Source: an uncultured Candidatus Saccharibacteria bacterium
GTDB lineage: Bacteria > Patescibacteriota > Minisyncoccia > Phycocordibacterales > Zambryskibacteraceae
DNA: 64,000 nt
Assembly (NCBI GenBank): GCA_964651655.1
Contig: CAZYVS010000002.1
Span: forward strand, 29,471 to 93,470
Direction of reading: 5' to 3'
Shown here: piece after piece, positions 22,912 to 37,243 of the stretch
How the letters are laid out: the number at the start of each line of letters is the position of its first letter
How positions within the stretch are numbered: the first letter of the stretch is position 1
Notes under the pieces: model-generated
Told to the model about the DNA's origin: nothing
The model's input: only the letters and a program-made list of their open reading frames with translations
The model's database searches: none
Made by a program: the position numbers and the translations under genes

Positions 22912-22949
22912 ATACGTTAATGTAATGCGGTCGCATTAAAGTAACGTAT
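22912..22949. promoter_or_regulatory. 38-bp palindromic operator-like element, copy A
   Basis: ATACGTTAATGTAATGCG-GT-CGCATTAAAGTAACGTAT. Related to the copies at 34594-34631 and 35227-35264. Confidence 0.5.
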
Positions 22950-22994: not shown

Positions 22995-23067
22995 GGGCTC
23001 ATAGTAAAGTGGTATTACACGGCATTCGCATTGCCGAGTCCCGGGTTCAATCCCCGGTGAGTCCACC
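22995..23067 (+). tRNA. tRNA-Ala (anticodon CGC)
   Basis: Manual fold: acceptor GGGCTCA/TGAGTCC with G3:U70, D stem GTAA/TTAC, anticodon stem CGGCA/TGCCG, loop TTCGCAT, T arm CCGGG-TTCAATC-CCCGG, discriminator A. Confidence 0.85.
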
Positions 23068-31770: not shown

Positions 31771-31796
31771 TTATTTATAGTGAGCTTGTCGAATTA
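31771..31796 (-). promoter_or_regulatory. Conserved intercistronic motif, copy e (alaS stop to the hypothetical gene)
   Basis: Coding-strand TAATTCGACAAGCTCACTATAAATAA, then a second TTATAAT 7 nt before the ATG. Confidence 0.55.
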
Positions 31797-33068
31797 TTTT
31801 TTAAATTTACGCCTTCCACCGGAACGCGAGATAGTTTGGTGTTTGCTCATTTCTTTGTCAAAAGCGGCGCGGTCGATTTTTATGCCCTTCTCCCCGGCCA
31901 GCTCTTCAGTCAATTCTATCGGGAAACCATAACTTGTGAAGAGGATAAAAGGATCAACCCCCTTATCAAACTGTTTGAGGCCTGATTCCAAAGTTTTGCC
32001 GAATTTTTCAATTTCCGTTGAGATAATATCCGCTATCGCCGGATTAAAGACATAAAGTCCCTTATAACTTTCATGATTAGAAACGGCTTTTGCCAGAGAA
32101 TTTATTGTTTTTAGATCACCTCCTATTTTTCTAACATGAACATAAGCGCGGCGAAGAAGCCGTCGTAAAATGTAACCCCGGCCGGTATTTGACGGTAAAA
32201 CACCGTCGCTTAGCGCAAAGACCGATGTTCGTATATGGTCGGCGATAATTCGTTTAGATCGGGTGAGAACGGAATCAAAACCATCAAACACCGAAATAAG
32301 CGGCGCAAACAGATCGGTGTCAAAAATATTATTTTTATTTTGAAGCGCCATAGTTAAACGCTCCAGCCCGGCGCCCGTATCAACATTTTTTTGTGATAAT
32401 TTATTTGTAATTTTTCCGTCTTTCTTCTCATATTCCATAAAGACATCGTTCCAAACTTCTACTACTTTCTGTTCTTTATCGGCCCTTTCATATTCTTGTT
32501 TGGTTAAATTTCCCAAGCCTTCGAGAGTAACGTCATAAAACATTTCCGTGTCCGGTCCGCACGGTCCGCTTTCTCCCGCGCTCCACCAATTTGATTTGGC
32601 TCCCAAAAAAAAGATTCTGTTCTTCGGCATATACTTCTGCCAAATTTTAAAAGCTTCTTCATCTTTCGGGGCATTTTCATCTCCCTCAAACACAGTAACG
32701 TAGAGTCGTTTAGGATCCAGGCCAAATCCTTCCTCTTTGTTTGTCAATAATTCATAACTCCACTGAATTGCTTCTTCTTTAAAGTAATCACCTAGAGACC
32801 AGTTACCAAGCATCTCAAAAAAAGTATCGTGAGTATTATCACCGACTTCGTTAATATCTTGGGTGCGTACACACTTCTGAATATTTACCAAACGTCTGCC
32901 TTGCGGATGTTTCTTACCCATAAGATATGGCACTAGAGGTTGCATCCCGGCGGTGGTGAATAGAACTGAAGAGTCATTCTCCGGCACGAGCGAGGCCGAC
33001 GGGATAACTGTGTGTCCCCGGTTCTCGAAAAAAGTCAGGAATCGCCGCCGAATTTCTTCAGATTGCAT
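31794..33068 (-). CDS. alaS: Alanyl-tRNA synthetase, N-terminal catalytic plus tRNA-recognition domains only (no editing or C-Ala domains)
   Basis: EIRRRFLTFFENRGHTVIPSASLVPENDSSVLFTTAGM and ADHIRTSVFALSDGVLPSNTGRGYILRRLLRR align to AlaRS residues 1 to about 455. The ORF ends there. Confidence 0.8.
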   Translation of the reverse strand: MQSEEIRRRFLTFFENRGHTVIPSASLVPENDSSVLFTTAGMQPLVPYLMGKKHPQGRRLVNIQKCVRTQDINEVGDNTHDTFFEMLGNWSLGDYFKEEAIQWSYELLTNKEEGFGLDPKRLYVTVFEGDENAPKDEEAFKIWQKYMPKNRIFFLGAKSNWWSAGESGPCGPDTEMFYDVTLEGLGNLTKQEYERADKEQKVVEVWNDVFMEYEKKDGKITNKLSQKNVDTGAGLERLTMALQNKNNIFDTDLFAPLISVFDGFDSVLTRSKRIIADHIRTSVFALSDGVLPSNTGRGYILRRLLRRAYVHVRKIGGDLKTINSLAKAVSNHESYKGLYVFNPAIADIISTEIEKFGKTLESGLKQFDKGVDPFILFTSYGFPIELTEELAGEKGIKIDRAAFDKEMSKHQTISRSGGRRKFKK

Positions 33069-33086
33069 TAGATGAATATAACACAA

Positions 33087-33668
33087 TTAAACGAGAGTCT
33101 TAAGCACTTTGAAATCTTCTTTAAGAGTCTCGAGAAGATGCTGGTTATAAATGGCCGCCGCCGGATGATAGAAAGGCGTAAATTTAAAATCCTTCGCCTG
33201 AAATACTTTGCCATGTAGAGCGCTGATGGATGAAAGCTCATTTTCAAGACCGTAACGATTCATGACGTATTGCATGGAAAACCGGCCAAGCGTGGCTATA
33301 ACTTTCGGTTTAATGATTCCAATTTGACGATCCAGAAACGGGGCGTAAATCTCTATCTCGTCCGGATAGGGATCACGGTTTCCGGGCGGGCGGTCTTTGA
33401 CAACATTGGTTACGTAGACGTTTTTTCTTTCTATACCGACGTGAGCCAGAAGCAGATCAAGCACCTTCCCCGCCCGCCCGCAAAACGGCCTGCCGGTTTT
33501 GGCCTCATTTTCTCCCGGTGCCTCGCCGATAAACATCACTATCGCCGAATGATTGCCTTCCCCTATTACCGGGAAATATTTATTTTGCACCCGCTCGGCA
33601 TAAAGCGGCGAAGCCTTGAGGGCGACAACCTCATTCTTAATTTTTTTTAATTCCTCATCACAATTCAT
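33087..33668 (-). CDS. Uracil-DNA glycosylase, family 4
   Basis: GEAPGENEAKTGRPFCGRAGKVL motif. Confidence 0.8.
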   Translation of the reverse strand: MNCDEELKKIKNEVVALKASPLYAERVQNKYFPVIGEGNHSAIVMFIGEAPGENEAKTGRPFCGRAGKVLDLLLAHVGIERKNVYVTNVVKDRPPGNRDPYPDEIEIYAPFLDRQIGIIKPKVIATLGRFSMQYVMNRYGLENELSSISALHGKVFQAKDFKFTPFYHPAAAIYNQHLLETLKEDFKVLKTLV

Positions 33669-34497
33669 TTATTTCGTTCATGACCGGTTCAATATTAAAA
33701 TTCTTACCAAGAAATTCATTCAATAATTTAGGATGCTTCTTAACATCCGAACAGAGAACAATCCTCTTCTCAAGAAGCGTCTTCTTATCGGCAGTCGAAA
33801 GCGAAACCAGGCAAGTCACGGGATGAAGCGCTTCGTTTTCAATCATCTCTTGCAAACCGGCATTTTCCGGATAATTCCATCCTATCATGGTTAAATTATT
33901 ACAAAGACCATAATGAATGGCCGTACTTGAAAATTTGGTATTGGTGACAAGCCAGCAATCGGTAACGTGCCTATTAGAACCGCCATAATCAAAAACGTTG
34001 CCGCGTAAATCGTCAAACCTTGCCTTGATATAAAGAACCACTTTCAAATCGGACTTTGTACCCAGACCATTATGAAATTTTGCTTCAATCATAATAAGTT
34101 CTTTTTCATTGTAGGCCACCACGTCTACTTCGTGCGCCACACATTCGCCAAGCACGGTTTGACGAGTCTGACACTTATAACCTTTGGCTTCAAGCACTCT
34201 GGCGATAAAATCTTCAAACGGAAAGCCTGAAGGTCCGAGATCCATCACCGCCCGACGAAGAGAATAACTTCTGGCAATCGGCTTGCTTATTTTTTGCAGA
34301 ATGGAAAAGGCGTGTCTGTAGATATCATTGGTTGTCATGTCGTCATGGAGTTCCGGCAAAATATGAGACATCACCTGCTCTACAGCTTCCTCCGTTGCGC
34401 CGGCATGAAAAAGAGAGTATCGGAGTTTTTCTTCATCAAAAATTTCCCGCTCTCCATTTGCCTTGAGAATTGTTACTTGTTTGGTTAGTTGCACCAT
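33658..34497 (-). CDS. ATP-cone domain fused to a PD-(D/E)xK (Mrr-like) restriction-endonuclease-fold domain
   Basis: The N-terminus ILKANGEREIFDEEKLRYSL is ATP-cone-like. The central FEDFIARVLEAKGY...VDVVAY...IMIEAKF has a D...ExK core. TATAAT lies 6 nt before the ATG. Confidence 0.55.
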   Translation of the reverse strand: MVQLTKQVTILKANGEREIFDEEKLRYSLFHAGATEEAVEQVMSHILPELHDDMTTNDIYRHAFSILQKISKPIARSYSLRRAVMDLGPSGFPFEDFIARVLEAKGYKCQTRQTVLGECVAHEVDVVAYNEKELIMIEAKFHNGLGTKSDLKVVLYIKARFDDLRGNVFDYGGSNRHVTDCWLVTNTKFSSTAIHYGLCNNLTMIGWNYPENAGLQEMIENEALHPVTCLVSLSTADKKTLLEKRIVLCSDVKKHPKLLNEFLGKNFNIEPVMNEINEL

Positions 34498-34593
34498 TCT
34501 AGTATTATACCTCACGACAATATCTCATTCATCACTCCGCCACTGAAACAGATTTTTTCACACACTCACCCTCGTTCATAGTTAAAATATCAT

Positions 34594-34631
34594 ATACGTT
34601 ACTTTTATGCGACCGCATTATTTTAACGTAT
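34594..34631. promoter_or_regulatory. 38-bp palindromic operator-like element, copy B (upstream of the ATP-cone nuclease gene)
   Basis: ATACGTTACTTTTATGCG-AC-CGCATTATTTTAACGTAT. Confidence 0.5.
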
Positions 34632-34661
34632 ATGTAAATAGAAATGGCATAGGAATTTTAA

Positions 34662-35228
34662 TTAAATTAATCCGAACTCTTCTCGCAGATGTTTATCGTT
34701 TTCCAGTTCATCAACAATCATGTATAAAAGATACTTACCTATTCTGAAATCAGTTTTGAGTAGAGTAATAATGTCTTCACAATCATAAGGATATATCCAA
34801 ACACTGTTTTGAAGACGTCGAATACCGGTCTGTCTAAAGAGTATGGTTAAATCATCTCTTGCCTTCTTTTTCTTTTCTGGAATATCAAAAATAATCACTC
34901 TCCATTTCTTATCCCATCTTTTGGGTTTTTGCAATTGGAAATCAGCGAATTGCCAACGGCGCAAGAGACTTTCCCCTTTTAAAGTCAGTTGATATCTCTT
35001 GCCGTCGTAGAAAAGTAATCCACGCTTAACAAGTTTACTGGCCGAGGAACCAATATACTCTTTTTGTCTCTTGTTTGGAAGAATGCCAAGCTTGGCAAGC
35101 GCTCCTATGACATTTGGAGCAACCAGAGCCACACTCAACATGCCCGCGACTGCCACAGTTTGCAAAATTACGTGTTGCAAATTTTTACGCTTTGATTTCT
35201 TACGGCTTTTATTCTCTAATTTACCCAT
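34662..35228 (-). CDS. wHTH plus Cas2/VapD-like fold protein (PaaX-like architecture); putative regulator
   Basis: The C-terminal half WRVIIFDIPEKKKKARDDLTILFRQTGIRRLQNSVWIYP resembles Cas2 or the PaaX C-terminus. The N-terminal half is wHTH-like. The gene is flanked by palindromic elements. Confidence 0.5.
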   Translation of the reverse strand: MGKLENKSRKKSKRKNLQHVILQTVAVAGMLSVALVAPNVIGALAKLGILPNKRQKEYIGSSASKLVKRGLLFYDGKRYQLTLKGESLLRRWQFADFQLQKPKRWDKKWRVIIFDIPEKKKKARDDLTILFRQTGIRRLQNSVWIYPYDCEDIITLLKTDFRIGKYLLYMIVDELENDKHLREEFGLI

Positions 35229-35264
35229 ACGTCACTTTTATGCGACCGCTTTATTATAACGTAT
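35227..35264. promoter_or_regulatory. 38-bp palindromic operator-like element, copy C (abuts the regulator's start codon and contains TATAAT)
   Basis: ATACGTCACTTTTATGCG-AC-CGCTTTATTATAACGTAT. Confidence 0.5.
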
Positions 35265-35289
35265 TATCCATAATTCTATTTACAGAGTT

Positions 35290-36417
35290 TTATTCCAAAA
35301 CCTTATCCATCACTCCGCCACCGAGACATGTCTCGGCATCATAAAATACTATTGATTGACCGAGTGAGAGTCCGCGTATCGGTTTCTTGAACTTCACCTC
35401 CACCCTGTTAAACACTCGGTGTTTAACATTTATGGGAAGTTTTTCACCTCGATGTCGTATCCGAGCAAACAATCGGGTTGTCTTTGGTTTGTTGATCCAA
35501 TTCACACTCTTGACCATAATTCGTGTTGGCGAATGTGATATTATCTCCGGTTTTTCATTTGAAACAGTAATAGTATTTGCCTTAATATCTTTGGACAAGA
35601 CATAAAAAGCTTTATCTTTCGGTAATTTCTTAGTGATTTCAAAACCGTGCCTTTCCCCTATGGTATATAGAAGAGCACCCTTGTGAGTACCTACAATGTT
35701 ACCGTGGGTATTTAATACTTTGCCTGGTTTGGTTGAAATAAAATGGGAAAGAAATTCATCCATCGGCACTTCGCCGATAAAACAGATTCCCTGGCTATCT
35801 TTCTTCTCAGAAACCGGCAAACGGTATTGGCGCGCCAACCTTCGCACCTCGCTCTTTTTCAAATCACCAATAGGAAAAATGGCATGGGAGAGATCATTTT
35901 GAGTTAGAGTCCATAGAAAATAGCTTTGATCTTTTTCTTTATCTTTTCCCTCCAACAACCGATAGCACAGAGGTTTAACCTTTGTAGATTCCCGAAGGTT
36001 AAACCTCTGTGCTGAAGCATAATGCCCAGTAGCAATATAATCCGCTCCCATTTTCTCGGCCTCTCTCCAGAACGTACCAAATTTAATTTCTCTATTGCAA
36101 AGCACATCTGGATTTGGTGTCCGGCCAAACTTGTATTCTGATATCATTTTATCTACTACACCACTCTTATACTCAGCTTCGAAATCAAAAAAGAGAAACG
36201 GGATGTCCAGTGCAATTGCCACTTTCATCGCATCGCGTCTTTCGTCTCTCCAACTGCAAGGTAAAAAATCCGGTTGCCAGACCTTTATAAATACACCCGT
36301 CACATCATGGCCAGTCTTTTTCAAAAGCGCGGCGCTCACCGCGGAATCCACTCCCCCAGAAAGACCAACAAAAACTTTGCGACTAGAGATATTGGGCGAT
36401 ATTTTTTTTATGTTCAT
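35290..36417 (-). CDS. mnmA: tRNA-specific 2-thiouridylase
   Basis: VFVGLSGGVDSAVSAALL PP-loop and MnmA family sequence throughout. Confidence 0.85.
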   Translation of the reverse strand: MNIKKISPNISSRKVFVGLSGGVDSAVSAALLKKTGHDVTGVFIKVWQPDFLPCSWRDERRDAMKVAIALDIPFLFFDFEAEYKSGVVDKMISEYKFGRTPNPDVLCNREIKFGTFWREAEKMGADYIATGHYASAQRFNLRESTKVKPLCYRLLEGKDKEKDQSYFLWTLTQNDLSHAIFPIGDLKKSEVRRLARQYRLPVSEKKDSQGICFIGEVPMDEFLSHFISTKPGKVLNTHGNIVGTHKGALLYTIGERHGFEITKKLPKDKAFYVLSKDIKANTITVSNEKPEIISHSPTRIMVKSVNWINKPKTTRLFARIRHRGEKLPINVKHRVFNRVEVKFKKPIRGLSLGQSIVFYDAETCLGGGVMDKVLE

Positions 36418-37243
36418 CAAAGGTTTTGGCATAATGCATTTTTCCATCCTTGCCTGTCAAGAAATACAAATAGGGTGTCGGGGTCGGATGAAGCGCCGCT
36501 TTAATCGAGACTAATCCGGGATTGTTGATGGGATTTTTGGGCAGACCGACAAATTTGTAAGTGCTGGTTTCCGAATCCACCTGCAAGGGCATCCCCATGT
36601 CAAGCCGTTTCCAGAGAATATCCGAGGCCATTTCCCGATCCTCTTTAGTTTGGGTTTCCGCTTCAAGAAGCGAGGCGATGATAATAATTTCTTCCAGGAT
36701 CCGACCCGAAGATTTTATTTCGGGCAAAGTTGAAGAAATTTTGCGAGTAAAATTATCGTTCATCAATTTAATGGTCGAAGAAGCCGTGGCGGTCACGGGT
36801 ATAAAGTAAGTATCGGGGAAAAGATACCCTTCCGGGGCCAAGGCCACAAAATTCTCGCGATCAAAGAATTTAAATCTATCGTCAAAAAGTGAAGAAATTT
36901 TTAGAACGTTGAAACCTTCCGGAATAGTTAGTTTAATTGTCTCCACATCATAATCTCCGCGGAAAATCCGCCAAGCAATGGTAAAAACGTTTTGCGGGCC
37001 AGACATTAAATATTGACCAGCTTTCATGGCGCGTTCGCCGCCGAGCAGAATCGCCGTTGCTCGAAACCAGAATGGAGAACGTATCGCTCTTTCCTCCCGT
37101 AATTTCTCCGCGAGAGAATAAAGTTCGGTCCCTTCCGGAACGGTAATCATGGCGCCTGAAGGAAATGCCAGGGGAGGAGTAGTAAAGAATGAGGCGACAA
37201 TAAACAGTATTATTCCCGCTAAAAGAGAAAGAATCTTTAGCAT
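36383..37243 (-). CDS. mltG: Endolytic murein transglycosylase (YceG-like)
   Basis: N-terminal TM and the PEGYLFPDTYF signature. Confidence 0.8.
   Translation of the reverse strand: MLKILSLLAGIILFIVASFFTTPPLAFPSGAMITVPEGTELYSLAEKLREERAIRSPFWFRATAILLGGERAMKAGQYLMSGPQNVFTIAWRIFRGDYDVETIKLTIPEGFNVLKISSLFDDRFKFFDRENFVALAPEGYLFPDTYFIPVTATASSTIKLMNDNFTRKISSTLPEIKSSGRILEEIIIIASLLEAETQTKEDREMASDILWKRLDMGMPLQVDSETSTYKFVGLPKNPINNPGLVSIKAALHPTPTPYLYFLTGKDGKMHYAKTFDEHKKNIAQYL

What the first reader, a model, noticed from the sequence alone, without database searches (positions are those of the whole stretch)
33658..34497. ATP-cone domain fused to a PD-(D/E)xK nuclease, under the palindromic operator: possible nucleotide-sensing nuclease or defence module
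ATP-cone domains are allosteric nucleotide sensors in NrdR and ribonucleotide reductases. Here an ATP-cone-like N-terminus is fused to an Mrr-like restriction-endonuclease fold. The candidate catalytic residues are D in HEVDVV and E-x-K in IEAKF. The gene sits downstream of a family-4 UDG. The Cas2-like/wHTH regulator lies upstream. It has a leaderless TATAAT start and shares the operator family with the regulator. An ATP- or dATP-gated nuclease could be a defence or abortive-infection effector, or a DNA-repair nuclease.
Basis: partly seen in the sequence, partly recalled or inferred. Interest (0 to 1): 0.55.

Follow-up and report, generated by a model that had tools for sequence, protein, structure and literature searches.

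The report
ATP-cone-gated DNA nuclease, housekeeping not defence
The gene really encodes a nucleotide-sensor domain fused to a DNA-cutting enzyme. It belongs to a large, uncharacterised, vertically inherited family whose neighbours point to DNA repair and nucleic-acid recycling, not to anti-phage defence.

Summary
The minus-strand ORF 34497→33658 (279 aa) has three domains: an ATP-cone, an AF1548/Mrr-type PD-(D/E)xK nuclease and an AF1548-like C-terminal domain. D125, E138 and K140 are invariant in 71 and 105 diverse homologues. The residues that contact adenine and phosphate in E. coli NrdR are kept. The AlphaFold model (pLDDT 93) matches PDB 1Y88 and the ATP-cones of NrdR and ribonucleotide reductase (RNR).

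The family is large: at least 6,400 clusters at 90% identity and at least 595 species genomes. It is absent from phage records and found on only 2 of 72,556 plasmids.

In about 70 Patescibacteria loci the gene sits just after mnmA. It opens an operon holding a variable cassette of MgtC, a Cas4-like nuclease, MGMT, PCMT, an HD 5'-deoxynucleotidase and UDG4. A TATAAT box about 6 nt before the start codon is conserved, which supports a leaderless start.

In Bacteroidota and Chlamydiota the gene heads a module of nuclease, β-CASP hydrolase, AMP-phosphorylase-like enzyme and PRPP-synthetase-like enzyme. In a Nitrososphaera genome it abuts a true AMP phosphorylase.

The PaaX-like regulator and its palindromes are a lineage-specific insertion into the 3' end of mnmA.

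Best reading: an adenine-nucleotide-gated DNA nuclease that ties DNA cleavage to nucleotide pools. Defence is not supported.

The parts
33658..34497 (-). Gene for the 279-aa ATP-cone / PD-(D/E)xK / AF1548-like_C protein ('NUC')
   Evidence: ORF; Pfam; identical public protein P0001; AF2 model pLDDT 93
34249..34473 (-). ATP-cone domain (residues 9-83). K12, E18, F20, K24, L25, T56 and I59 align with E. coli NrdR K53, E59, F61, K65, L66, S105 and I108
   Evidence: Pfam PF03477; profile alignment to NrdR chains; NrdR ligand contacts from bioRxiv 10.1101/2025.03.28.645925; Foldseek matches to NrdR and RNR
34213..34239 (-). Junction motif L-G-P-S-G-F-P-F-E (residues 87-95) between the last ATP-cone helices and the first nuclease helix. 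G88, P89, G91, F94 and E95 are invariant. Candidate allosteric relay (inference)
   Evidence: Alignments A1-A3; secondary structure of the model
33883..34227 (-). PD-(D/E)xK nuclease core (residues ~91-205). Codons: D125 = 34123-34125, E138 = 34084-34086, K140 = 34078-34080. H122, E123, R160, D163 and T185-N186-T187 are also invariant
   Evidence: Pfam Mrr_cat; 1Y88 match; invariance; AF1548 catalytic prediction in PMC1821046
33661..33834 (-). AF1548-like C-terminal helical domain (residues ~222-279), probably a helix-hairpin-helix-type DNA-binding module
   Evidence: PF22357 hits in homologues; aligned to the 1Y88 C-terminus; domain model pLDDT 88, whose best PDB matches are Hel308 domain 5, RNAP alpha-CTD, RadA/Rad51 N-terminal domain, BAF and Pol iota, all weak (E 0.5-4)
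34504..34509 (-). TATAAT -10 box 6 nt upstream of the ATG (GGTATAAT-ACTAGA-ATG): conserved promoter for a leaderless transcript
   Evidence: Sequence; alignment with relatives; 49/78 loci have >=5/6 TATAAT against 6% at random, and 19 are perfect against 0.2%
34512..34560 (-). Relic copy of the 3' end of mnmA (reads CFSGGVMNEILS*). It keeps the ancestral 14-nt spacer to the NUC start codon
   Evidence: Direct repeat D2 against 35296-35328; alignment with mnmA ends of relatives
34594..34631 (.). 38-nt palindromic element (copy 1), between the PaaX-like gene and the mnmA relic. It carries a TAAAAT hexamer on the minus strand
35227..35264 (.). 38-nt palindromic element (copy 2). It overlaps the TATAAT and the start codon of the PaaX-like gene, so it is probably an autoregulatory operator
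34662..35228 (-). PaaX_M (Cas2-like) plus winged-helix protein, 188 aa. Lineage-specific inserted cassette, not part of the conserved system
   Evidence: Pfam PF20803 E 4.4e-18; absent at this position in all other loci
33087..33668 (-). Family-4 uracil-DNA glycosylase. Its start overlaps the NUC stop by 11 nt, so it is the downstream gene of the same operon
   Evidence: Pfam UDG E 3e-30 and TIGR00758 181.8 bits; UDG4 lies in the downstream cassette in 31 loci
35290..36447 (-). mnmA (tRNA 2-thiouridylase), the conserved upstream neighbour of NUC in Patescibacteria

Best explanation
The gene encodes a chromosomal, vertically inherited, single-polypeptide DNA nuclease whose activity is set by adenine nucleotides. 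The N-terminal ATP-cone binds ATP, dATP or a related adenylate. By analogy with RNR and NrdR it would change the oligomeric or conformational state of the protein. An invariant LGPxGFPFE junction leads straight into the first nuclease helix, which carries the invariant E95. That switch would turn the Mg2+-dependent E95/D125/E138/K140 active site on or off. The C-terminal helix-hairpin-helix-like domain would hold the DNA. Biologically the protein couples DNA cleavage to the state of the nucleotide pool. In Patescibacteria it is the first, leaderless gene of an operon with DNA-damage and deoxynucleotide-handling genes; here that gene is UDG4, and elsewhere they include MGMT, a Cas4-like nuclease and a YfbR-like 5'-deoxynucleotidase. 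In Bacteroidota, Chlamydiota and a Nitrososphaera genome it heads or abuts genes that break nucleic acid down through nucleoside monophosphates (NMPs) to ribose phosphates. Shown here: domain identities, invariant catalytic and ligand-contact residues, conserved promoter, genomic contexts, and absence from phage and defence contexts. Inferred: which nucleotide is bound, the direction of the switch, the substrate, and the physiological role.
For: Domains and fold. Invariant D125/E138/K140 plus E95, H122, E123, R160 and D163. The ATP-cone keeps the NrdR inner-site contacts, K12/E18/F20/K24/L25/T56/I59 against E. coli NrdR K53/E59/F61/K65/L66/S105/I108. Sensor-plus-PD-(D/E)xK architecture resembles the ligand-gated nucleases VC1899, Can2 and Cdn1. 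The C-terminal domain resembles HhH DNA-binding modules. Family size and uniform ~280-aa architecture. Conserved Patescibacteria block LeuRS-sigma70-DUF8128-YceG-MnmA-NUC-[MgtC/Cas4-like/MGMT/PCMT/HD/UDG4]-AlaRS in ~70 loci. Conserved NUC/beta-CASP/TP-family (AMP-phosphorylase-like)/Prs module in Bacteroidota metagenomes (beta-CASP in 42 of 70 loci; AMPpase-like plus Prs in 23) and in RefSeq plasmids of Pontibacter and Criblamydia with overlapping genes. A true AMP phosphorylase (595 bits, cut-off 535) lies 51 nt upstream in Nitrososphaera. Conserved leaderless -10 box. Housekeeping-like divergence. No phage hits and only 2 plasmids.
Against: There is no biochemical evidence for this family. 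No paper on an ATP-cone/nuclease fusion was found. The Pfam ATP-cone score is marginal, and profile E-values against NrdR are only 0.1-0.2, so the call rests on structure prediction and motif conservation. The nearest solved relative, AF1548, has no ATP-cone, so the nuclease can exist without the sensor. The Patescibacteria synteny could largely reflect shared ancestry rather than functional coupling. The AMP-phosphorylase, beta-CASP and Prs genes are absent from the window and from all Patescibacteria loci examined, so the catabolic-pathway link is transferred from other phyla. The HhH assignment has non-significant Foldseek E-values and no Pfam HhH hit. Neighbour analysis used crude ORF calling and single-linkage clustering, on the 80 loci most similar to each query.
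Confidence: 0.55

Rival explanations
1. A dedicated DNA-repair endonuclease. It would be a structure- or lesion-specific nuclease working with the co-transcribed UDG4, MGMT or Cas4-like proteins, for example processing abasic or nicked intermediates. ATP-cone gating would restrict cutting to cells with enough ATP or dNTPs to complete repair.
For: UDG4 overlaps the NUC stop codon in this window. UDG4 (31 loci), a Cas4-like PDDEXK_1 nuclease (23) and the MGMT DNA-binding domain (18) recur in the cassette directly downstream in Patescibacteria. The nuclease plus HhH-like arrangement recalls XPF/Mus81-type structure-specific nucleases (recalled from memory, not tested).
Against: The cassette is variable, and it also holds non-DNA genes (MgtC, PCMT). 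Outside Patescibacteria the conserved partners are beta-CASP, AMP-phosphorylase-like and Prs genes plus glycolytic and stress genes, not repair genes. No XPF or Mus81 entry appeared among the 50 best of 607 Foldseek matches.
Confidence: 0.25
2. An anti-phage defence or abortive-infection effector: a nuclease released when infection disturbs the ATP/dATP pool.
For: Sensor-plus-PD-(D/E)xK is a common defence architecture. Foldseek finds Can2, Cdn1, VC1899, MspJI and AspBHI. Weak PADLOC similarities exist: PDC-S02 at E 5e-4 and CARF_PDDEXK at E 4e-3. Phage infection is known to perturb dNTP pools (general knowledge).
Against: No defence genes are among the conserved neighbours in about 150 loci. 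Synteny with mnmA, alaS and ribosomal genes is fixed. Divergence equals that of housekeeping neighbours. The family is absent from 50,697 phage records and present on 2 of 72,556 plasmids. BFVD has no full-length viral counterpart. The PADLOC hits cover only part of the nuclease fold and fall well short of the scores of the real domain matches.
Confidence: 0.06
3. A nucleotide-sensing DNA-binding regulator, functionally like NrdR. The nuclease fold and C-terminal domain would serve only to bind DNA, and the protein would repress or activate the downstream operon.
For: NrdR is the closest structural match for the N-terminal domain. The gene sits at the head of operons. Some PD-(D/E)xK folds have become DNA-binding modules (general knowledge).
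Against: The full catalytic set E95/D125/E138/K140 is invariant across the family, which is not expected for a purely DNA-binding role. No conserved operator was found next to the gene in relatives. The only palindrome belongs to the inserted PaaX-like cassette.
Confidence: 0.06
4. The local regulatory reading: in this genome the nuclease is controlled by the PaaX-like/Cas2-like protein through the shared 38-nt palindrome.
For: Palindrome copies lie upstream of both genes at 92% identity. The copy at the regulator gene overlaps its TATAAT and start codon. The copy upstream of NUC carries TAAAAT.
Against: The conserved leaderless -10 box of NUC lies about 105 nt downstream of the palindrome centre and is separated from it by the mnmA relic. 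The cassette is absent from every other locus, including an 89%-identical relative. A third copy precedes tRNA-Ala, and the operon continues into the alaS-like gene, so the real target may be alanine-tRNA supply rather than the nuclease.
Confidence: 0.3

Closest known systems
AF1548 of Archaeoglobus fulgidus (PDB 1Y88; Pfam Mrr_cat + PF22357 AF1548-like_C)
   Same: Homologous over the nuclease core and the C-terminal domain: E 4.5e-25 for the single sequence, 7.8e-48 for the profile, Foldseek E 2.6e-14. The same D/E/K catalytic triad was predicted for AF1548.
   Different: AF1548 has no ATP-cone and lacks the LGPxGFPFE junction. It is a structural-genomics protein with no known function.
ATP-cone of NrdR and of ribonucleotide reductases (PF03477)
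   Same: Same fold (rmsd 1.9 A over 81-87 columns to E. coli NrdR 9GEX). The lid Lys/Glu, the Phe/Leu/Ile pocket, the helix-1 Lys and the Ser/Thr phosphate contact are conserved. It is N-terminal, as in RNR catalytic subunits.
   Different: The effector is a nuclease, not a radical enzyme or a Zn-ribbon. Sequence similarity is marginal (26.6 bits). Ligand, second-site occupancy and oligomerisation are untested.
Ligand-gated PD-(D/E)xK nucleases Can2 / Card1 / VC1899 / Cdn1 (CARF sensor + nuclease)
   Same: An N-terminal nucleotide-sensor domain is followed by a PD-(D/E)xK effector. Foldseek E values are 3e-4 to 3e-3. This is the likely working analogy: ligand binding switches the nuclease.
   Different: The sensor is an ATP-cone, not CARF. 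No CRISPR or cyclic-oligoadenylate synthase lies nearby. The family is housekeeping-like and vertically inherited.
Mrr / MspJI / AspBHI type IV restriction endonucleases
   Same: Mrr_cat catalytic core.
   Different: There is no modified-DNA reader domain (SRA or winged helix). The contexts are not restriction-modification or defence, and there are no phage or plasmid associations.
Archaeal NMP-degradation (pentose bisphosphate) pathway: AMP phosphorylase, ribose-1,5-bisphosphate isomerase, type III RuBisCO (recalled from the literature, not read here)
   Same: The NUC gene abuts a bona fide AMP phosphorylase, RuBisCO and e2b2 cluster in Nitrososphaera. It heads a beta-CASP, AMP-phosphorylase-like and Prs module in Bacteroidota and Chlamydiota.
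   Different: To my knowledge no nuclease has been assigned to that pathway. The bacterial TP-family proteins score just under the AMP_phos equivalog cut-off (472-506 bits against 535). The window's genome segment has none of these genes.

Membership tests
ATP-cone domain (PF03477) | Profile match above the curated threshold | tested here: met
   26.6 bits against a cut-off of 25.8 for the window protein; 29.8-33.7 bits for homologues P0301 and P0275
ATP-cone domain (PF03477) | Four-helix cone with a beta-hairpin lid | tested here: met
   The AF2 model has E9-11/E17-19 followed by helices 22-31, 36-49, 56-70 and 72-85. Foldseek matches NrdR 9GEX at rmsd 1.9 A and RNR ATP-cones
ATP-cone domain (PF03477) | Conserved nucleotide-contact residues (lid Lys/Glu, helix-1 Lys, hydrophobic adenine pocket, Ser/Thr phosphate contact) | tested here: met
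   K12 invariant; F20 and K24 >=90% conserved; T56 invariant. They align with NrdR K53/F61/K65/S105
ATP-cone domain (PF03477) | Binds ATP/dATP and switches activity through oligomerisation | not testable with these tools
   Needs ITC, SEC-MALS and activity assays
PD-(D/E)xK nuclease, Mrr_cat / AF1548 family | Profile match and homology to a solved member | tested here: met
   Mrr_cat 25.5 bits against a cut-off of 21; 1Y88 at E 4.5e-25 and 7.8e-48
PD-(D/E)xK nuclease, Mrr_cat / AF1548 family | Catalytic D ... (D/E)-x-K on adjacent beta-strands, plus an acidic residue on helix 1 | tested here: met
   D125 (strand 121-129), E138-x-K140 (strand 134-140) and E95 (start of helix 94-104) are all invariant
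PD-(D/E)xK nuclease, Mrr_cat / AF1548 family | Mg2+-dependent phosphodiester cleavage | not testable with these tools
   No biochemical data for any family member were found
AF1548-like_C (PF22357) | Profile match in the C-terminal ~55 residues | tested here: inconclusive
   The window protein gives no Pfam hit at E<=10 for residues 215-279. Homologues P0301 and P0340 pass (25.6-28.8 bits against 23.9). The region aligns with the 1Y88 C-terminus in the profile search
Anti-phage defence system (PADLOC families, defence islands) | Match to a known defence protein model | tested here: not met
   The best hits are PDC-S02 (E 5e-4, 17 bits, 60 residues) and CARF_PDDEXK (E 4e-3)
Anti-phage defence system (PADLOC families, defence islands) | Patchy distribution, location in variable or mobile regions, defence-gene neighbours | tested here: not met
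   Fixed synteny in ~70 Patescibacteria loci and a conserved metabolic module elsewhere. Divergence equals that of housekeeping neighbours. No phage records and 2 plasmids
Type IV (Mrr-like) restriction enzyme | DNA-modification reader domain fused to Mrr_cat | tested here: not met
   The N-terminal domain is an ATP-cone, not a winged helix or SRA
NrdR-type repressor | Zn-ribbon DNA-binding domain N-terminal to the ATP-cone; NrdR boxes at nrd promoters | tested here: not met
   There is no Zn-ribbon. TIGR00244 scores 18.3 bits against a cut-off of 124.65, covering only the cone

The most novel reading that the evidence does not exclude
The ATP-cone nuclease is the gated entry enzyme of a nucleic-acid-to-energy or salvage route. 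When the adenylate or dATP signal falls, the cone releases the nuclease. DNA, and RNA with the beta-CASP partner, is then cut to NMPs and dNMPs. An AMP-phosphorylase-like enzyme and a Prs-like enzyme feed the ribose phosphates into glycolysis or phosphoketolase fermentation. In Patescibacteria, which are widely reported to lack de novo nucleotide synthesis, the same switch would govern scavenging of DNA for deoxynucleotides. That would make it the salvage-side counterpart of ATP-cone control of ribonucleotide reductase.
Probability: 0.3. Interest if true: 0.8.

Novelty: new variant of a known kind. Interest (0 to 1): 0.58.

Why it matters
ATP-cones have been studied in mechanistic detail only in ribonucleotide reductases and NrdR. 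This family holds thousands of members in Patescibacteria, Bacteroidota, Chlamydiota and Nitrososphaera, and in it the same sensor is wired to a DNA nuclease. If the cone really gates the nuclease, this would be a third functional class of ATP-cone proteins. It would also be a simple way to tie DNA cleavage to the ATP/dATP pool. The conserved operon with a beta-CASP hydrolase, an AMP-phosphorylase-like enzyme and a PRPP-synthetase-like enzyme offers a candidate for a missing step: how polymeric nucleic acid enters the NMP-degradation (pentose bisphosphate) route. The proteins are small and soluble-looking, and cultivable Flavobacterium and Pontibacter strains carry them, so the idea can be tested directly. 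For annotation, 'restriction endonuclease' and 'ATPase' are misleading names for this family, and it should not be counted as a defence gene.

Tried and rejected
- **Defence reading rejected.** PADLOC gave only weak partial hits. Phage and plasmid searches were essentially empty. BFVD matches cover single domains only.
- **PaaX-like regulator and palindrome as a family feature rejected.** They are absent from all other loci. The 174-aa ORF in the same slot of an 89%-identical relative is unrelated.
- **Alternative GTG start at 34515 rejected.** Homologues and the identical public protein begin at the ATG. The GTG would place the conserved TATAAT inside the coding sequence.
- **Literature search found nothing.** Six searches combining ATP-cone with nuclease, endonuclease, Mrr or AMP phosphorylase, plus one on AF1548, found no characterisation. 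The only relevant text is the 2007 prediction that AF1548 is a restriction-endonuclease-fold protein.
- **First genome scan failed.** The scan with the 71-sequence alignment failed because it had no conserved 7-10-column stretch. It was repeated with 12 sequences.
- **First gene calling dropped.** Greedy gene calling missed short genes. It was replaced by all-ORF clustering.
- **Search for catabolic genes in the window was negative.** AMP-phosphorylase, beta-CASP, Prs and Usp genes were not found in the window or in Patescibacteria loci.
- **Pfam HhH match for the C-terminal domain: none**.
- **Conserved cysteines left unresolved.** I could not check whether C119, C199, C229 and C249 cluster in space, because model coordinates are not exposed.
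Full report
**1. What is in the sequence**

The finding's coordinates hold a minus-strand ORF, ATG 34497-34495 to stop 33660-33658, 279 aa. A longer GTG-initiated version from 34515 is not used. An identical 279-aa protein is called on public contigs, and every homologue starts at the ATG position.

Pfam reports an ATP-cone at residues 9-83 (26.6 bits, cut-off 25.8) and Mrr_cat at residues 91-197 (25.5 bits, cut-off 21). These scores are marginal, so I looked for independent evidence.
- The nuclease core and C-terminal part are clearly homologous to the structural-genomics protein AF1548 (PDB 1Y88). The match is E 4.5e-25 with the single sequence and 7.8e-48 with a family profile, covering residues 94-278.
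- An AlphaFold2 model built on 105 homologues is confident throughout (mean pLDDT 93, pTM 0.86).
- Foldseek returns 1Y88 first (E 2.6e-14).
- It then returns E. coli and Streptomyces NrdR and many ribonucleotide reductase (RNR) ATP-cones. The best superposition is rmsd 1.9 A over 81-87 columns on NrdR 9GEX.
- It also returns the sensor-plus-PD-(D/E)xK nucleases VC1899, Can2 and Cdn1, and MspJI and AspBHI.

The domain fusion is therefore real.

**2. Catalytic and ligand-binding residues**

I aligned 71 representatives of 50%-identity clusters (34-48% identical to the query), and separately 105 further homologues.
- D125 (HEVDVV), E138 and K140 (IEAKF) are invariant in both alignments.
- They equal the D38/E51/K53 predicted for AF1548 by Yooseph et al. 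2007, PMC1821046.
- E95, H122, E123, R160, D163 and T185-N186-T187 are also invariant or nearly so.

For the cone I used the HMMER alignment of the family profile to E. coli NrdR, together with the published description of NrdR's inner nucleotide site (bioRxiv 10.1101/2025.03.28.645925). The correspondences, window protein to NrdR, are:
- K12 to K53 and E18 to E59 (lid)
- F20 to F61, L25 to L66 and I59 to I108 (adenine pocket)
- K24 to K65
- T56 to S105 (gamma-phosphate contact)

K12 and T56 are invariant. F20 and K24 are at least 90% conserved. The pocket looks functional for an adenine nucleotide.

An invariant motif, L-G-P-x-G-F-P-F-E (residues 87-95), joins the last cone helices to the first nuclease helix, which starts with E95. 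I propose it as the relay between sensor and active site. That is inference.

**3. The C-terminal domain**

Residues ~222-279 correspond to Pfam PF22357 (AF1548-like_C). The model is matched by homologues but not by the window protein itself.

A separate model of this domain (pLDDT 88) gives only weak Foldseek matches (E 0.5-4). All of the best ones are helix-hairpin-helix-type DNA-binding modules: Hel308 domain 5, RNAP alpha-CTD, the RadA/Rad51 N-terminal domain, BAF and the Pol iota thumb. This suggests DNA as the substrate, but it is not proof.

**4. The family**

- The three-domain, ~280-aa architecture is uniform.
- 432 clusters at 50% identity score E<1e-30.
- 6,422 clusters at 90% identity match the family profile.
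- Members come from Patescibacteria (the window is closest to Candidatus Zambryskibacteria), Bacteroidota, Chlamydiota and Nitrososphaera.
- Source annotations vary: 'ATP cone domain-containing protein', 'restriction endonuclease', 'ATPase' and 'YraN family'.
- I found no experimental paper.

**5. Genomic context in Patescibacteria**

I clustered all ORFs from 86 loci and checked representatives against Pfam. About 70 loci share one block:

LeuRS - sigma70 - DUF8128 - YceG - MnmA - NUC - [variable cassette] - AlaRS

The cassette genes are all on the same strand and tightly packed.

| Cassette gene | Loci |
|---|---|
| UDG4 | 31 |
| MgtC | 27 |
| Cas4-like PDDEXK_1 nuclease | 23 |
| MGMT DNA-binding domain | 18 |
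| YfbR-like HD 5'-deoxynucleotidase | 10 |
| PCMT | recurrent, not counted |

In the window the cassette is UDG4 alone, and its start overlaps the NUC stop by 11 nt. So UDG is downstream of the nuclease, not upstream as the finding says.

NUC identity to relatives tracks that of MnmA, LeuRS and AlaRS. Against L003 it is 71% compared with 71% and 73%. Against L017 it is 52% compared with 55% and 48%. This is vertical, housekeeping-rate evolution.

**6. The leaderless promoter**

In relatives the mnmA stop codon is followed by GGTATAAT, then 5-7 nt, then the NUC start codon.
- Across 78 loci, 49 have at least 5 of 6 TATAAT bases ending 3-11 nt before the start (mode 6-7 nt). The rate at random positions in the same loci is 6%.
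- 19 loci are perfect, against 0.2% at random.
- Many carry an upstream TG, as in extended -10 boxes.
- The non-Patescibacteria loci lack the box.

NUC is the first gene of its own transcription unit.

**7. The palindrome and the PaaX-like gene**

The 38-nt palindrome is present at 34594-34631 and at 35227-35264 (92% identical). A third copy lies at 22914-22947. Chance expectation is zero.

No other locus has either the PaaX-like gene or the palindrome, apart from contigs of the same species. A relative with 89%-identical NUC has an unrelated 174-aa ORF in that slot.

The stretch 34512-34560 is a decayed duplicate of the mnmA 3' end (CFSGGVMNEILS*, against CLGGGVMDKVLE* in the real gene). It keeps the ancestral 14-nt spacer, the TATAAT and the ATG. 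The regulator cassette was therefore inserted into the end of mnmA, with a duplication of about 35 nt.

The copy at the regulator gene overlaps that gene's own TATAAT and start codon, which fits autoregulation. The copy upstream of NUC is centred about 105 nt from the conserved -10 box. The third copy lies about 50 nt upstream of tRNA-Ala(CGC), and the NUC-UDG operon runs into the alaS-like gene. The regulator's real business may therefore be alanine-tRNA supply. Control of the nuclease by this operator is possible but unproven, and it is not a property of the family.

**8. Context outside Patescibacteria**

This was the most informative result. In 70 Bacteroidota-type metagenomic loci the gene lies in a same-strand cluster.
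- Upstream: archaeal-type GAPDH, class I aldolase, PFK, MgtC-DUF4010, 2-hydroxyacid dehydrogenase, and either tandem Usp (directly upstream in 21 loci) or a P-type cation ATPase (adjacent in 11-13 loci).
- Then NUC.
- Then an 84-aa ORF in 18 loci.
- Then a beta-CASP metallo-beta-lactamase in 42 loci.
- Then a ~500-aa thymidine-phosphorylase-family protein in 23 loci.
- Then a ribose-phosphate diphosphokinase-like protein in 23 loci.

NCBIfam places the phosphorylase in the archaeal PRK04350/ARCH_P_rylase subfamily. It scores 472-506 bits on the AMP-phosphorylase equivalog, just under the cut-off of 535.

RefSeq annotation shows the same four overlapping genes on a Pontibacter actiniarum megaplasmid and on a Criblamydia sequanensis plasmid. 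They are named ATP cone protein, MBL fold metallo-hydrolase, thymidine phosphorylase family protein and ribose-phosphate pyrophosphokinase. In Criblamydia they are flanked by a P-type ATPase, phosphoketolase, glycogen phosphorylase and acetate kinase.

In a Nitrososphaera genome NUC lies 51 nt downstream of a bona fide AMP phosphorylase (595 bits), which follows RuBisCO and an IF-2B-family gene, presumably the ribose-1,5-bisphosphate isomerase.

None of these genes occur in the window or in the Patescibacteria loci.

**9. Interpretation**

Everything is consistent with a nuclease whose activity is set by an adenine nucleotide. It is used in chromosomal, core or stress-type programmes that handle damaged DNA and deoxynucleotides in Patescibacteria. 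In Bacteroidota, Chlamydiota and Thaumarchaeota those programmes degrade nucleic acid through NMPs to ribose phosphates.

The working analogy is twofold.
- The ATP-cone acts as a master switch through nucleotide-dependent oligomerisation, as in RNR and NrdR.
- A sensor-plus-PD-(D/E)xK effector, as in Can2 and Card1.

The ligand bound, the direction of the switch and the substrate are all inferred.

The defence reading fails every test I could run:
- no significant PADLOC match
- no defence neighbours
- no phage records and almost no plasmids
- only single-domain matches in BFVD
- housekeeping-rate divergence

A dedicated repair role remains the main rival. It is supported by the UDG, MGMT and Cas4-like cassette and weakened by the contexts outside Patescibacteria.

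**10. Limits**

- ORF calling was crude: all ORFs of at least 70-80 aa, clustered by single linkage.
- Each scan kept only the 80 loci most similar to the query.
- Patescibacteria synteny may partly reflect common descent.
- The ATP-cone assignment rests on a predicted structure and on motif conservation.
- The literature library lacks most subscription journals. In particular I could not read Aravind, Wolf and Koonin 2000, which defined the ATP-cone and may already list this fusion.

**11. Verdict**

The gene is a typical member of a very large, catalogued but uncharacterised family. As a system, an ATP-cone-gated nuclease is a new variant of known kinds. Interest is moderate to fairly high, because the conserved operons make a concrete and cheap biochemical hypothesis testable.

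Noticed in passing
window 34512-35330 (relic 34512-34560; cassette 34594-35264; true mnmA end 35290-35330): The PaaX_M/Cas2-like gene and its two flanking 38-nt palindromes form an insertion into the 3' end of mnmA. A ~35-nt duplication lets mnmA keep an intact C-terminus and leaves a decayed copy (CFSGGVMNEILS*) in front of the nuclease gene. The layout is duplication, palindrome, gene, palindrome, duplication, which resembles a mobile cassette with a target duplication.
   Followed up: partly
L091:3368-3892 (relative with 89%-identical nuclease): The same mnmA-to-nuclease slot holds an unrelated 174-aa ORF with no Pfam hit. Most relatives have nothing there. The slot appears to be an insertion hotspot.
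   Followed up: partly
window 22914-22947 and 22995-23067: A third copy of the palindrome (3 mismatches) lies about 50 nt upstream of tRNA-Ala(CGC). The nuclease-UDG operon continues into an alaS-like gene (31794-33086). The PaaX-like protein may therefore coordinate tRNA-Ala and AlaRS expression.
   Followed up: partly
window 31794-33086 (-): The AlaRS-like ORF is only ~424-430 aa. Relatives range from 381 to 544 aa, and only some have the tRNA_SAD domain. This suggests truncated or split alanyl-tRNA synthetases in this lineage.
   Followed up: no
nuclease protein residues C119, C199, C229, C249 (window codons within 33751-34143): Four cysteines are invariant or at least 90% conserved across the family. 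AF1548 keeps three of them. They could form a metal or Fe-S site linking the nuclease core and the C-terminal domain. Their spatial proximity could not be checked.
   Followed up: no
L001:5837-6259, L005:5859-6308, 27 Patescibacteria loci; L155:2864-4132; L007:3390-6011; L177:1-1845: Mg2+ and cation-homeostasis genes recur next to the nuclease gene in three phyla: MgtC directly downstream, MgtC-DUF4010, and P-type cation ATPases that are adjacent or overlapping. No explanation was found. One possible link runs through Mg2+-ATP levels.
   Followed up: partly
L108:4390-4644 and 17 other Bacteroidota-type loci: A conserved 84-aa ORF ending in CCGGH sits between the nuclease and beta-CASP genes. 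It has no Pfam or NCBIfam match.
   Followed up: no
L096-L175 (e.g. L121, L128, L138, L155): Marine Bacteroidota carry a long same-strand cluster. It holds archaeal-type GAPDH, class I aldolase, PFK, a 2-hydroxyacid dehydrogenase, tandem Usp, the nuclease, a beta-CASP hydrolase, an AMP-phosphorylase-like protein, Prs and two unknown ORFs. It looks like an energy- or oxygen-starvation regulon, and I found no description of it.
   Followed up: partly
window 36383-36447: The yceG (mltG-like) and mnmA ORFs overlap by about 60 nt as called from the longest starts. The same overlap appears in relatives (for example L003 3787-3830).
   Followed up: no
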